A stretch of 64,000 nt of DNA from Octopus sinensis (taxonomy: Eukaryota), in assembly GCF_006345805.1 (NCBI RefSeq), contig NC_042997.1:189038001-189102000 (forward strand), in the 5' to 3' direction. Shown in pieces: positions 555 to 29,865 of the stretch. The stretch's first letter is position 1. Each line of letters opens with the position of its first letter. Both the position numbers and the translations under genes were made by a program. A model generated the notes under the pieces. It ran no database searches. It worked only from the letters and a program-made list of their open reading frames with translations, and was not told where the DNA came from.

Positions 555-562
<8 letters not shown>

Positions 563-3140
563 TATTGGCAGGGCTGGCCTGCTAGGTAGCCGGCCAGAAT
601 GCTAGAAATAGATCATCAACGATCAAACTACAAGGGAAATTCTCTAGAGGAAGAATTCAGCGAACACCAGAACCAAATTTGGCGGGCAGGACATATGAAA
701 AATTAAATAAAAAAAAGACTTAAATGCATACCTCGGTTTCGGTCTTAACAAAAGAATTACTTGCATAATTCAAGTGTCCGTGACTTCTTCAGTACATTCG
801 GTCCTCGAGATGCAAACCGCAAGACTAACCCCAGCTCTCTGTGTCAAGACAGACACGTGCTTAGTCTTACTGATTACATCGGGAATAAAATTTCAAATGT
901 CTTGGTTCCGGCGCGCTAAGAGACTCCTGAAGCGAAGGGCTGCAGTGAATAATTCACTGCGGGTAAAGCTTACTACTAGGGAACGTATTTATTTAAATAT
1001 TTAAAAATTGAGGGAGATAAATTAATATTAATTTTAATATCAATTTAAAACCAGTAGTCCAGCATTCAAAAAATCTGAGGAGTCAGAGAAAATTCAAATA
1101 TATGTGTATATTGGCAGGGCTGGCCTGCTAGGTAGCCGGCCAGAATGCTAGAAATAGATCATCAACGATCAAACTACAAGGGAAATTCTCTAGAGGAAGA
1201 ATTCAGCGAACACCAGAACAAATTTGGCGGGCAGGACATATGAAAAATAAATAAAAAAAACAGACTTAAATGCATACCTCGGTTTCGGTCTTAACAAAAG
1301 AATTACTTGCATAATTCAAGTGTCCGTGACTTCTTCAGTACATTCGGTCCTCGAGATGCAAACCGCAAGACTAACCCCAGCTCCCTGTGTCAAGACAGAC
1401 ACGTGCTTAGTCTTACTGATTACATCGGGAATAAAATTTCAAATGTCTTGGTTCCGGCGCGCTAAGAGACTCCTGAAGCGAAGGGCTGCAGTGAATAATT
1501 CACTGCGGGTAAGCTTACTACTAGGGAACGTATTTATTTAAATATTAAAAATTGAGGGAGATAAATTAATATTAATTTTAATATCAATTTAAAACCAGTA
1601 GTCCAGCATTCAAAAAATCTGAGGAGTCAGAGAAAATTCAAATATGTGTATATTGCAGGGCTGGCCTGCTAGGTAGCGGCCAGAATGCTAGAAATAGATC
1701 ATCAACGATCAAACTACAAGGGAAATTCTCTAGAGGAAGAATTCAGCGAACACCAGAACCAAATTTGGCGGGCAGGACATATGAAAAATTAATAAAAAAC
1801 AGACTTAAATGCATACCTCGGTTTCGGTCTTAACAAAAGAATTACTTGCATAATTCAAGTGTCCGTGACTTCTTCAGTACATTCGGTCCTTGAGATGCAA
1901 ACCGCAAGACTAACCCCAGCTCTCTGTGTCAAGACAGACACGTGCTTAGTCTTACTGATTACATCGGGAATAAAATTTCAAATGTCTTGGTTCCGGCACA
2001 CTAAGAGACTCCTGAAGCGAGGGCTGCAGTGAATATTCACTGCGGGTAAAGCTTACTACTAGGGAACGTATTTATTTAAATATTAAAAATTGAGGGAGAT
2101 AAATTAATATTAATTTTAATATCAATTTAAAACCAGTAGTCCAGCATTCAAAAAATCTGAGGAGTCAGAGAAAATTCAAATATATGTGTATATTGGCAGG
2201 GCTGGCCTGCTAGGTAGCCGGCCAGAATGCTAGAAATAGATCATCAACGATCAAACTACAAGGGAAATTCTCTAGAGGAAGAATTCAGCGAACACCAGAA
2301 CCAAATTTGGCGGGCAGGACATATGAAAAATTAAATAAAAAACAGACTTAAATGCATACCTCGGTTTCGGTCTTAACAAAAGAATTACTTGCATAATTCA
2401 AGTGTCCGTGACTTCTTCAGTACATTCGGTCCTCGAGATGCAAACCGCAAGACTAACCCCAGCTCCCTGTGTCAAGACAGACACGTGCTTAGTCTTACTG
2501 ATTACATCGGGAATAAAATTTCAAATGTCTTGGTTCCGGCGCGCTAAGAGACTCCTGAAGCGAAGGGCTGCAGTGAATAATTCACTGCGAGTAAAGCTTA
2601 CTACTAGGGAACGTATTTATTTAAATATTTAAAATGAGGGAGATAAATTAATATTAATTTTAATATCAATTTAAAACCAGTAGTCCAGCATTCAAAAAAT
2701 CTGAGGAGTCAGAGAAAATTCAAATATATGTGTATATTGGCAGGGCTGGCCTGCTAGGTAGCCGCCAGAATGCTAGAAATAGATCATCAACGATCAAACT
2801 ACAAGGGAAATTCTCTAGAGAAGAATTCAGCGAACACCAGAACCAAATTTGGCGGGCAGGACATATGAAAAATAAATAAAAAACAGACTTAAATGCATAC
2901 CTCGGTTTCGGTCTTAACAAAAGAATTACTTGCATAATTCAAGTGTCCGTGACTTCTTCAGTACATTCGGTCCTTGAGATGCAAACCGCAAGACTAACCC
3001 CAGCTCTCTGTGTCAAGACAGACACGTGCTTAGTCTTACTGATTACATCGGGAATAAAATTTCAAATGTCTTGGTTCCGGCACACTAAGAGACTCCTGAA
3101 GCGAAGGGCTGCAGTGAATAATTCACTGCGGGTAAAGCTT
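555..3140 (-). repeat. Tandem array of ~4.7 copies of a ~543-bp hammerhead-containing unit (retrozyme/Penelope pLTR-like)
   Basis: Unit anchors ttg(g)caggg at 565, 1111, 1653, 2193 and 2737; near-identical copies; starts in a TA microsatellite and ends abruptly at ~3140. Confidence 0.9.
722..799 (-). ncRNA. Minimal type I hammerhead ribozyme motif (further copies at 1268-1345, 1807-1884, 2350-2427, 2891-2968)
   Basis: Minus strand reads gaatgta-CTGAAGA-a-GTC..(gaatta/taattc hairpin)..GAC-c-GAAA-CCGAGGT-A-tgcattt. Stem I is gaatgta/tgcattt, stem III is ACC-GA-GGT, and the cleavage triplet is GUA. Confidence 0.75.
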
Positions 3141-3417
3141 AAGTGTGTGTGTTTGTGTATATCCTTTTCTTGACACCACATGGTAGTTGTAAATGAGCAT
3201 CATCATCATATAATTGGTGTTCATTTTCAGTCTTCCATGAAAAGCATGTCTGGCCATGGGGAAATATTGCATTGCCTGGAAACTGATGAGAATTGATGAC
3301 ATGAAGGGCATCTAGTTGTAAGAAATCTGTTTCAACAAATTCTGTCTGACGCATACAAGTATGGAAAAGTGGACATGAAATGATGATGATAATGATATAC
3401 ACAAACTTATATATATA

Positions 3418-24908: not shown

Positions 24909-27900
24909 TTAATTGTAGTTTGAATTTGATAAATTGTATTGTATTTTAAGGAATGGCCTTTCAGTAATCTGATGTGCAGTGAAATAAATTGGGATAGGCA
25001 AGATTGGTACTGTTATTGTGTTTATGTAATGTAGGAGTATGTAAAAGTAATAGGAGTTGTATAGGTAGAATATGGAGAATATTACAGAAAATCATAGAAT
25101 ATGGGGAATAAAGTGAAAAGTGAATAGTAGATATTAGTTTAATTGAAGATAAAGAGTAGCTTACAAATTCTGAACTGAGGCAGAAAGAAGGTTTTATTGA
25201 TTGAACAGATGACTGTGATTGGAGGTGGTACAACTCCCAAATATGAGAATGCAATGTCATAAGGTTCCAGGTTTTAGCTGTTACTGATAAGATGAATAAT
25301 AATCTTGTTAATTTTAACTGAAGTAATTTAGGAAAAAAAAAAAAGTTACTATTAGGTCCAAGGAAGTCCTGTTAAATTGGTTGACATACAAGTTGTTCTG
25401 CTTGTCATGAACAAAAGTAATGAATATTTGGAAGTGAAAAAATATTGTTATCGTTCTGTGTAATGAGTGTCTTTATTTTGTCAATTATTTAAAATTCATT
25501 TTGGGTATTAATAAAATTTTCATCAGCTCTTATGGCTAGTCTGCAATGTTTTTATAGTCTTTCACTGCTTTCCATTTTTAATCTGTAAATTTTCATATGC
25601 TTATGTCTTGTTTAATTTTGAAAACAATAAGAATTTGGAATGAATTAGTTAAATAACTAATTTTTAGGTGCATTTCTATATCAAATTGGTGTTTTTAACA
25701 TAAGGATAAAATTTTATTGCGTAAAATTATGATGGAAAGTTCTGACTTAATTGTGCATACTTCAAAACAAGATTTTAGTTTGCATCCAAGAACCAAACGA
25801 GCAAAATACGTACAATTTACTTTTACCATTATCATGGGAGGACTCATTGATAGAAAAAAAGTTTTAAACGTTTATCTTTAGAAACAAAGACTGACTCAGT
25901 TAATTTACCAAATAATTTAACTTTCAGTTATTCTGAGAGAATTTATATTGAAGTTTAACAGAGTAGAAAAATATATCGAAACTTGTAGAAATAGGATCAT
26001 AAAAGAGTTAGCAACATAAAAAGACCTTTTAGCAATCTTTTACATTTTTCTGGATATACTTGGTTATTTTCAGCATTATCAAATACAACAGGATGCTTGC
26101 ATGTTTGCTATTTTGAGTGCATGTTTAAAATATTTCTCTTATATTTCACAATATATATTTTTTTATATTCTTTTTAAATAAAGTTATGGTGTTGGTGGCT
26201 TTTATACTTTTATTTGCTCTTCACCCGGAACTTGTGTTTTTGGTGTTTTATATAAATTTTTGCTTTGGACATTCAGTTTAAGAATTTTAAAATCAAATCT
26301 GAAATCTCAACACTTAATTGTACTGTTACTTGACAAATTTCTTGTCATCAATTTATTTCATCCTGAAGCATTGCTTTCTCTTTTATTTTATTCACAGTAT
26401 TGGCTACTGTGATAGTGCTGACCACTGTTTTGCTCAATCCTCATTCAGAAATGCGTCCTGTTTGAAATTTTTGTATTGGTACATGCACAGTTAAAGAGTT
26501 GTGTAATGTATTTGTTTGCTGATGTCTAATCTATATGTATAATCAGGACTTATCTTACTAACTCTTAACAGTGGGACACATAGAGGCATCGTGTGCATGC
26601 ATAAACTTTTTAAGTTAGAATGAGGGCAGTGTAAAAATGCCATCAGATGTGGGGCTAGATTTCATATATATATATATATATATAAATACAGATGAGTGGT
26701 ACAACAAGGCATCAATATTTACTGGAAATAGCAGTCGATACAAATACGATGTTATTGTAAAGCTTCACTGCGTATATACTGGCAAAGACGTGTGAGTGCA
26801 ACAAACATGAAAAATTTGTTTTACCTCTAGGAAGAACATTCGATAAATGGACAACCCAGAATTGGATAATGCAGGACCGGTTTCTGACTCTTCAAATACG
26901 TTTGTCAATGTAAATTTGATCAGTCTTCATCAGCTGCATTTACCTAGACAAGATTTCAAATGTTGCCACATCAATGCCAGTACACTCGCCTGAACGCTTA
27001 GTTGTTAAAAGAACGAGAAGAGTGAAAAGGTTTTCAATGAAAAAATACAATAAAATAAAAATAAAACCTCATAAGGGTAATAAAATAAATACAGTAAAAT
27101 AAAGCCCTATAAGGGTAGAAGTATAACTATAAATACAGATGAGTGGTACAACAAGGCGCCAATATTTACTGGAAATAGCAGTCGATACAAATATGACAGT
27201 ATTGTAAAGCTTCACTGCGTATATACATTCAAATATATATACATACCTGTATGTATGTGTGTGTGTATATATAGGACCCGGCAGGACTAGTCAGGCCATA
27301 TCCCGTGGCCCCTACCTGGGACGTAGTCGATCCACCTGTGCATACCTTCCTTCTTGTGACACTTGTGAAGACCTGCTGAGGCAAGTGTAAATCAATCAAA
27401 ATAGATGAACATCAATGGAATTTGTATCTTTGTGGTACCAGTGCCTGTGGCACACAAGAAAACCATCCGAACGTGGCCGTAGCCAGTACCGCATCGACTG
27501 GCCTCCGTGCTGTGGGAACATGGTGGCACATAAAAACACCATCCGAAGACCCGGCAAGACTAGTCAGGTCATAACCCGTGGGCCCTACCTGGGACGTAGT
27601 CAGTCCACCTGTACATACCTTCCTTCTTGTGACACTTGTGAAGACCTGCTGAGGCAAGTGAAAATCAAATCAAATCAAAACAAATCAAAATAGATGAACA
27701 TCAATGGAATTTGTATCCTTGTGGTACCAGTGCCGGTGGCACACAAGAATCCATCCGAACGTGGCCGTAGTCAGTACCGCTTGTGGTACCAGTGCCGGTG
27801 GCACACAAGAATCCATCCGAACGTGGCCGTAGTCAGTACCGCATCACTCGCCATTGTGCTGTGGGCACATAACAAACACCATCCGGTCGTGGCCGTTCGC

Positions 27901-29865
27901 CAGCCTCATCTAGCACCTGTGTCGGTGGCACATAAAAAGTAGTCAGTACCGCTTGTGGTACCAGTGCCGGTGGCACACAAGAATCCATCCGAACATGGCC
28001 GTAGTCAGTACCGCATCACTGGCCATCGTGCTGTGGGCACATAACAAACACCATCCGGTCGTGGCCGTTCGCCAGCTTCATCTAGCACCTGTGTCGGTGG
28101 CACATAAAAACACCTTCCGAAGACCCGGCAAGACTAGTCAGGCCATAAACCATGGCCCCTACCTGGGACGTAGTCAGTCCACCTGTGCATACCTTCCTCC
28201 TTGTGATACTTGTGAAGGCCTGTTGAGGCAAGTGAAAATCAAATCAAAATCAAATCAAAACAAATCAAAATAGATGAACATCAATGGAATTTGTATCTTT
28301 GTGGTACCAGTGCCGGTGGCACACAAGAGAAAACCATCCGAAAGTGGCCGTAGCCAGTACCGCATCGACTGGCCTCCGTGCTGTGGGCACATGACAAACA
28401 CCATCCGATCGTGGCCGTTCGCCAGCCTCATCTAGCACCTGTGTCGGTGGCACATAAAAACACCATCCGAAGACCCGGCAAGACTAGTCAGGCCATAACC
28501 CATGGCCCCTACCTGGGACGTAGTCAGTCCACCTGTGCATACCTTCCTTCTTGTGACACTTGTGAAGACCTGTTGAGGCAAGTGAAAATCAAATCAAAAC
28601 AAATCAAAATAGATGAACATCAATGGAATCTGTATCTTTGTGGTACCAGTGCCGGTGGCACACACTTTGTGGTACCAGTGCCGGTGGCACACAAGAGAAC
28701 CATCCGAACGTGGCCGTAGCCAGTTCCGCATCGACCGGCCTCCGTGCTGTGGGCACGTAACAAACACCATCCGATCATGGCCGTTCGCCAGCCTCATCTG
28801 GCACCTGTGTCGGTGGCACATAAAAACACCTTCCGAAGACCCGGCAAGACTAGTCAGTCCACCTGTGCATACCTTCCTTCTTGTGACACTTGTGAAGACC
28901 GGTTGAGGCAAGTGAAAATCAAATCAAATCAAAATAGACAAAATAGATGAACATCAATGGAATTTGTATCCTGTGGTACCAGTGCCTGTGGCACACAAGA
29001 ATCCATCAGTGCCGTAGTCAGTGCGGTGGGCACATGACAAACACCATCCGATCGTGGCCGTTCGCCAGCCTCATCTAGCACCTGTGTCGGTGGCACATAA
29101 AAACACCATCCGAAGACCCGGCAAGACTAGTCAGGCCATAACCCATGGCCCCTACCTGGGACGTAGTCAGTCCACCTGTGCATACCTTCCTTCTTGTGAC
29201 ACTTGTGAAGACCTGTTGAGACAAGTGAAAATCAAATCAAAACAAATCAAAATAGATGAACATCAATGGAATTTGTATCTTTGTGGTACCAGTGCCGGTG
29301 GCACGTGGCACATAAGAAAACCATCCGAACGTGGCCGTAGCCAGTACCGCATCGACTGGCCTCCGTGCTGTGGGCACGTAACAAGCACCATCCGATCGTG
29401 GCCGTTTGCCAGCCTCATCTGGCACCTGTGTCGGTGGCACATAAAAACACCATCCGAGCGTGGCCGTCTGCCAGCCTCGTCTGGCACCTGTGTCGGTGGC
29501 ACATAAAAACACCATCCGAGCGTGGCCGTCTGCCAGCCTCGTCTGGCACCTGTGTCGGTGGCACATAAAAACACCATCCGAGCGTGGCCGTCTGCCAGCC
29601 TCGTCTGGCACCTGTGTCGGTGGCACATAAAAACACCATCCGAGCGTGGCCGTTTGCCAGCCTCGTCTGGCACCTGTGTCGGTGGCACATAAAATCACCC
29701 ACTACACTCTCGGAGTGGTTGGCGTTAGGAAGGGCATCCAGCTGTAGAAACACTGCCAGATCTGACTGGACTGGTGCAGCTTTCGGGCTCCCCAGACCCC
29801 AGTTGAACCGTCCAACCCATGCTAGCATGGAAAGCGGACGTTAAATGATGATGATGATGATGATG

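What the first reader, a model, noticed from the sequence alone, without database searches (positions are those of the whole stretch)
26681..27226. Second hammerhead element: 447-bp 1.2-mer with a clean minimal HHR
Seen: 99-bp direct repeats separated by 447 bp. Inside, the minus strand reads AATGCAG CTGATGA aGACT..AGTCa GAAA CCGGTC CTGCATT, giving a 7-bp stem I, a palindromic ACCGGT stem III and a GUC site. The element sits against a TA run. Short motifs echo the 543-bp family (ctctag(a)ggaaga before the HHR on the + strand; gaaatag; ttcactgcg), hinting at distant kinship. Inference: a slightly longer-than-unit copy is the footprint expected from reverse transcription around a circular or multimeric RNA.
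Basis: partly seen in the sequence, partly recalled or inferred. Interest (0 to 1): 0.75.

Follow-up and report, generated by a model that had tools for sequence, protein, structure and literature searches.

The report
Penelope-mobilised hammerhead retrozyme, worn copy
This is one worn copy of a roughly 430-base protein-free jumping repeat, present in hundreds of copies in this genome, that carries a predicted self-cutting RNA fold and is likely pasted into TA microsatellites by Penelope-type retrotransposon enzymes; it is a new member of the known animal retrozymes.

Summary
In detail: a 447-bp unit plus a 99-bp repeat (93/99 identical) with a type I hammerhead on the minus strand, beside (TA)n. 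The hammerhead is not quite clean: stem II opens with an A·A mismatch and stem III forms only in a dimer. The family has at least 340 dispersed copies and no adjacent ORF. Back-to-back insertions pair one end of each kind in 55 of 56 classed cases. These are Penelope-like element marks. Across a ladder of subfamilies the hammerhead keeps its pairing through five compensatory changes. Seamless 2.7- and 3.2-mers exist, and about 97% of copies read through the cleavage site, so the template is a circle or an uncut multimer; I cannot tell which. No autonomous partner was found; cleavage and circles are untested. This copy has one hammerhead and a damaged hairpin, so it is likely a dead end. The scan noted the same kind and the two-site pattern before in other families of this genome.

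The parts
26664..26684 (.). (TA)n microsatellite at the RNA 3' end; likely the nicked target
   Evidence: 79 of 106 family loci have 8 or more TA bases within 25 nt of the 3' end
26681..27127 (-). One full unit (447 bp here, about 430 in the family); its RNA 3' end is the major fixed end E1
27128..27226 (-). 5'-truncated piece of a second unit, head to tail without spacer (pseudo-LTR-like)
   Evidence: 93 of 99 identical
26868..26940 (-). Type I hammerhead: 7-bp stem I, CUGAUGA, long stem II with A·A at its base, GAAA, palindromic ACCGGU stem III; predicted cut 26875/26874
27042..27117 (.). 38-bp tandem duplication private to this copy; replaces a conserved hairpin and half of a long-range helix arm of the family
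26718..26728 (-). One arm of an 11-bp helix invariant in 8 of 8 subfamily majorities; its partner is damaged in this copy

Best explanation
This is a single-armed, 5'-truncated, 1.2-unit copy of a non-coding hammerhead repeat of about 430 bp that is likely reverse-transcribed into TA microsatellites by the enzyme of a Penelope-like element (PLE) acting in trans. Shown: copy number, lack of an ORF, two fixed 3' ends (E1 at the unit end, E2 55-80 nt further on), variable 5' ends, back-to-back arms pairing E1 with E2, seamless multimers, covarying hammerhead. Inferred steps: (1) a multimer locus is transcribed; (2) two hammerheads pair through the palindromic stem III and cut, or stay uncut; (3) a unit-length RNA is ligated to a circle (about 55%) or the uncut multimer serves directly (about 45%); (4) a PLE RT-endonuclease cuts (TA)n and starts internally on the RNA at E1, and on the other strand at E2; (5) synthesis stops early, giving 0.4- to 3-unit arms. 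This copy has one hammerhead and cannot release a unit by itself, so it is likely a dead end.
For: Copies: 340 exact hits of one 22-mer, 172 with intact stem I, core and stem III, plus 71 of a sister subfamily; backward-pattern controls 0. Ends: E1 78, E2 17, other 11 of 106 loci; E1 140, E2 14, other 16 of 170 single-orientation copies. Two-armed insertions: 73, of which 55 E1+E2, 1 E1+E1, 0 E2+E2, 17 with an end elsewhere. 5' truncation, partial tandems, inverted 5' pieces, tail and (TA)n preference are listed as PLE traits in PMC8557442 (passages); two internal RT starts and extension of both strands were shown in vitro for a lizard PLE (PMC11167929). The genome holds many RT/GIY-YIG PLEs (147 matches of 150 scored; Pfam RVT_1 + GIY-YIG) ending in (TA)n. 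Hammerhead: 5 of 24 pairs change on both sides, 90.8% of cells paired against 23-41% for slid controls. Whole unit folds better than shuffles as a circle (z -3.6 here, -6.7 in a young copy). Only 9 of 335 and 0 of 85 copies stop at the cleavage site.
Against: No autonomous PLE sharing sequence with the family was found: none of 30 GIY-YIG loci matched it, and no ORF was contiguous with it in the family loci checked (loci L315-L327 were not checked). No RNA evidence of cleavage or circles; only contigs of runs guessed to be RNA were available. This copy's group spread with an A·A mismatch at the base of stem II (69 of 88 intact cores), which may weaken cleavage. In the lizard PLE, hammerhead cleavage was not needed for insertion in vitro and no strand difference in start site was seen. 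Covarying rows are related, so the shuffle control is not a probability.
Confidence: 0.82

Rival explanations
1. Classic circle-only retrozyme: the RNA circle is primed at arbitrary points, giving freely permuted copies.
For: Seamless read-through of the unit junction (19 of 97) and of the cleavage site; near-identical units in the 3.2-mer (418-419 of 423-425); strong fold; circles shown for coral, mussel and axolotl repeats (PMC7229834).
Against: 3' ends are fixed at two sites in 95 of 106 loci. A circle remains possible, free permutation does not. The predicted rod also forms in the linear unit.
Confidence: 0.08
2. These are only truncated terminal repeats (pseudo-LTRs) of an autonomous PLE whose full copies I did not sample.
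For: Most copies are shorter than one unit (70 of 97); PLE pseudo-LTRs carry such hammerheads (PMC4209133). One copy (L066) lies downstream of a decayed GIY-YIG in the same orientation.
Against: Every copy that passes the unit start continues into another unit, never into coding sequence; upstream flanks are not shared. The L066 joint falls inside the 3' region of an unrelated old PLE that runs further at another locus.
Confidence: 0.06
3. A DNA-level satellite or chance hairpin, spread by duplication rather than through RNA.
For: A few arrays are DNA duplications of a truncated copy with its flank (L166, identical units starting mid-unit). The isolated motif folds no better than shuffles.
Against: Dispersed copies with polar ends, truncation, inverted arms and compensatory changes in the RNA fold.
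Confidence: 0.02

Closest known systems
Animal non-LTR retrozymes (Cervera and de la Pena 2020, PMC7229834, parts 2-4 of 6 read; Li, Clavereau and Pollet 2026, bioRxiv 10.64898/2026.07.22.740005, parts 1-3 of 5 read)
   Same: Non-coding unit of a few hundred bp, low GC (0.34), one type I hammerhead per unit, monomers to multimers, no LTR/PBS/PPT, co-occurs with PLEs; the preprint argues such elements derive from PLE terminal repeats.
   Different: Mostly dispersed, truncated, under two units; two fixed 3' ends and back-to-back arms, which the parts I read do not describe for retrozymes; PLE-type long stem II; circles and cleavage untested here.
Penelope-like elements: minimal hammerheads of pseudo-LTRs (PMC4209133, parts 1-2 of 4), structure (PMC8557442, 12 of 18 passages), mechanism of PAc (PMC11167929, parts 1-3 of 4)
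   Same: 5' truncation, partial tandem, inverted arm, optional tail, AT-rich target, dimer-type hammerhead with palindromic stem III and long stem II.
   Different: No ORF; tail is 55-80 nt rather than 30-40; strict E1+E2 pairing of the two arms, whereas PAc showed no strand difference in start site in vitro; the typical G10.1-C11.1 pair is replaced by A-U or A·A.
Non-autonomous Chlamys PLEs such as MRC1 (PMC8557442, passage)
   Same: Non-coding, pseudo-LTR-forming, head-to-tail insertions.
   Different: Those generally resemble an autonomous family at the 3' end; no such partner was found here, and Chlamys lack canonical hammerheads.

Membership tests
Animal non-LTR retrozyme | Short non-coding unit with one type I hammerhead | tested here: met
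   longest ORF inside the element 48 aa
Animal non-LTR retrozyme | Tandem copies with two or more complete hammerheads | tested here: met
   Family: (L061, L315, L316, L317). This copy itself has one hammerhead and does not meet it.
Animal non-LTR retrozyme | No LTRs, no short fixed target duplication | tested here: met
   Variable 5' ends; 3 of 170 candidate duplications; microsatellite flanks limit the test
Animal non-LTR retrozyme | Self-cleavage | not testable with these tools
   Indirect only: covariation; excess of copies starting at the cut site seen in one set and not replicated
Animal non-LTR retrozyme | Expressed as circular RNA | not testable with these tools
   Only contigs from runs guessed to be RNA
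Non-autonomous PLE | 5' truncation with fixed 3' end and partial tandem (pseudo-LTR) | tested here: met
Non-autonomous PLE | Optional tail and inverted 5' arm | tested here: met
   17 of 106 tails, 28 of 106 inverted pieces; 73 two-armed insertions
Non-autonomous PLE | Sequence shared with an autonomous PLE | tested here: inconclusive
   None in 30 GIY-YIG loci of 5029 candidates, mostly one family
Autonomous PLE | RT plus GIY-YIG ORF | tested here: not met
LTR retrozyme | Type III hammerhead in LTRs, 4-bp target duplication | tested here: not met
   Type I fold; no fixed paired ends

The most novel reading that the evidence does not exclude
The family is a fossil record of a ribozyme circle evolving under selection and of how PLE enzymes copy it. 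One RNA circle primes both strands of a cut TA repeat from two dedicated start sites (55 of 56 classed two-armed insertions). Successive subfamilies retune the hammerhead: A·A versus A-U at the base of stem II, five compensatory pairs, and in 11 of 85 young copies a 6-nt duplication at the cut site that is predicted to turn a dimer-only hammerhead into one that folds as a monomer. A small excess of copies starting at the cut site would be genomic evidence that a PLE-type hammerhead cuts in vivo.
Probability: 0.35. Interest if true: 0.68.

Novelty: new member of a known kind. Interest (0 to 1): 0.4.

Why it matters
The copy itself is ordinary. The family is useful because the role of the hammerhead in Penelope-like elements is open: in the one reconstituted system cleavage was dispensable for insertion. 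Here a graded series of natural variants (mismatched, repaired, and stem-III-extended hammerheads) in one lineage allows a direct test of whether cleavage and circularisation are needed for spread, and the strict E1+E2 pairing constrains models of how a PLE dimer engages both strands of a break.

Tried and rejected
Kinship with the 543-bp array: local alignment 35 against null 32.5±4.5, 84 of 300 shuffles as good; flanks alone 295 and 89 of 300; rejected. Autonomous partner: blastn of 30 GIY-YIG loci, tblastn of family loci with 6 PLE proteins, shared-flank test; none found; L066 rejected as an insertion in an unrelated PLE. Copies starting at the cleavage site: 5 of 97 in a 3-nt window (Poisson p about 0.001; four-count windows occur elsewhere); genome-wide 9 of 335 (8 distinct) against 3 distinct in the next 6-7 nt (p 0.004-0.009; overlapping with the first set). 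I noticed the cluster before testing it, most cases have TA or other microhomology, and the sister subfamily gave 0 of 85 with 2 stops 7 nt upstream (pooled p 0.018): inconclusive. Intron: donor-like and acceptor-like motifs are invariant but no splice joint appeared in contigs; unsupported, not excluded. Expression: no RNA holder listed on record; contigs of guessed-RNA runs cover young subfamilies; no conclusion. Within-element versus nearest-other identity (0.946 vs 0.973, 42 pairs) is biased by best-of-many choice and uninformative on circles. Core invariance across majorities (0 of 23 vs 59 of 269) is partly built in, as many loci were picked by core patterns; not used as evidence. One search used a misregistered structure; one search replaces it. 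One search's spacer missed the main subfamily. Rfam: no hit. Supplements of the five papers were not read and may list cephalopod families; searches for hammerhead+retrozyme+octopus and Penelope-like+octopus+hammerhead listed no paper on this family by title or abstract start.

Full report
Observation. The window holds a 447-bp unit at 26681-27127 followed without spacer by 99 bp of a second unit (93 of 99 identical), against a (TA)n run. The minus strand carries a type I hammerhead at 26940-26868. Stem III has a 2-nt loop, monomer pairing probability 0.00, while two copies cofold through the ACCGGU palindrome. Stem II opens with A·A. Rfam finds nothing, and no ORF inside exceeds 48 aa.

Family. 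The window lies in a 2.7-Gb genome of 13,516 contigs (earlier notes call it octopus-like, which I did not test). A DNA search gave 1739 candidates, 40 scored, main matches 80-94% identical. Exact motifs give 128, 172 and 340 hits, with 0 for backward controls; a sister subfamily at about 78% identity adds 71. The family unit is about 430 bp; this copy is longer through a private 38-bp duplication that replaces a conserved hairpin.

Ends. In 106 loci (10 duplicates dropped; picked by overall likeness or hammerhead motifs) the RNA 3' end lay at the unit end E1 in 78, at a tail end E2 55-80 nt further in 17, elsewhere in 11; 79 had (TA) just 3'; 28 had an inverted piece; 29 exceeded one unit. For 97 of the first 100 hits of a motif chosen without regard to 5' ends, 70 stopped inside the unit, 8 near the TA-rich junction and 19 ran beyond it. 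Of 73 two-armed insertions, 55 pair E1 with E2, 1 is E1+E1, none E2+E2, and 17 have an end elsewhere. I ran this pairing test after reading earlier notes reporting it for other families of this genome. Candidate non-simple target duplications: 3 of 170. These traits match the PLE description in PMC8557442 (passages), and the tail matches the two internal RT starts shown for a lizard PLE that cuts AT-rich DNA and extends both strands (PMC11167929). The genome has abundant RT/GIY-YIG elements with a CxxxxCxxC motif before the nuclease (Neptune/Nematis type); by eye their 3' regions hold a U3-A8-type hammerhead before (TA)n.

No partner. None of 30 GIY-YIG loci matched the family; no ORF was contiguous with any family locus checked, and upstream flanks were unshared. 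The mobilising enzyme is therefore inferred from insertion geometry, not from shared sequence.

Ribozyme. A tree of 131 segments shows a ladder of subfamilies; copies differ from their group majority by 6.2% in the oldest, 5.0% in this copy's group and 1.6-2.1% in the youngest. On 15 hand-picked representatives, 5 of 24 hammerhead pairs change on both sides (two in stem I, three in stem II), 90.8% of cells pair, and slid controls give 23-41%; the rows are related, so these are about five events. Stem III alternates between the palindromes CCGG and CCUAGG and the triplet between GUC and GUA. The whole unit folds as a long rod with the hammerhead at its tip, in circular and linear form alike, with two-sided changes only inside the hammerhead (z -3.6 and -6.7). 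In the sister subfamily 11 of 85 copies carry a 6-nt duplication at the cut site that raises predicted monomer stem III pairing to about 0.7 (L320).

Template. Seamless 2.7- and 3.2-unit arms with near-identical units exist in young copies. Only 9 of 335 and 0 of 85 copies stop at the cut site, so cleaved linear monomers are not the main template. A ligated circle, as shown for coral, mussel and axolotl retrozymes (PMC7229834), or an uncut multimer both fit. A circle explains better how longer-than-unit copies are regenerated despite truncation (inference; proposed for PLEs in PMC4209133). The small excess of starts at the cut site did not replicate and is inconclusive (see Tried and rejected). 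RNA data were contigs of runs only guessed to be RNA and decide nothing.

Verdict. A real element, correctly described, and a new member of the animal non-LTR retrozymes, which a 2026 preprint derives from PLE terminal repeats. This copy, with one hammerhead and a damaged hairpin, is likely inert. Interest 0.40.

Noticed in passing
L320, L321, L322, L318, L325; 11 of 85 hits: Sub-lineage with a 6-nt duplication at the hammerhead cut site that extends stem III and is predicted to allow monomer folding.
   Followed up: partly
window 555-3141: 4.75-unit array of a 543-bp repeat, 98% identical, with a type I hammerhead (A·C at the base of stem II, non-palindromic CCGAGG) on the minus strand, beside (TA)n; unrelated in sequence to the 447-bp family.
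   Followed up: partly
L038, L051, L052, L053 (3' regions): Abundant RT/GIY-YIG family with several 775-883-aa open frames; by eye a U3-A8 minimal hammerhead about 100 nt before the (TA)n, and an optional tail in L053 and L058.
   Followed up: partly
window about 26803-26830 and 26720-26730 (minus strand): Splice-donor-like and acceptor-like motifs about 110 nt apart are conserved across subfamilies (the donor-like one carries a change in this copy); no splice joint seen in contigs.
   Followed up: partly
window 26661-26678 and 27228-27245: Flanks resemble each other (15-18 nt, 83-89%, D9); could be a degenerate target duplication but is low-complexity.
   Followed up: no
L166, L319, L327: Local DNA-level duplications of truncated or two-armed copies together with their flanks.
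   Followed up: no
window 27275-29864 and many other sites: Very abundant dispersed repeat with 60-62-bp internal tandem units, directly beside the element.
   Followed up: no
L034:2614-2685: Another type I hammerhead candidate with a palindromic CTCGAG stem III, opposite in strand to a nearby GIY-YIG fragment.
   Followed up: no
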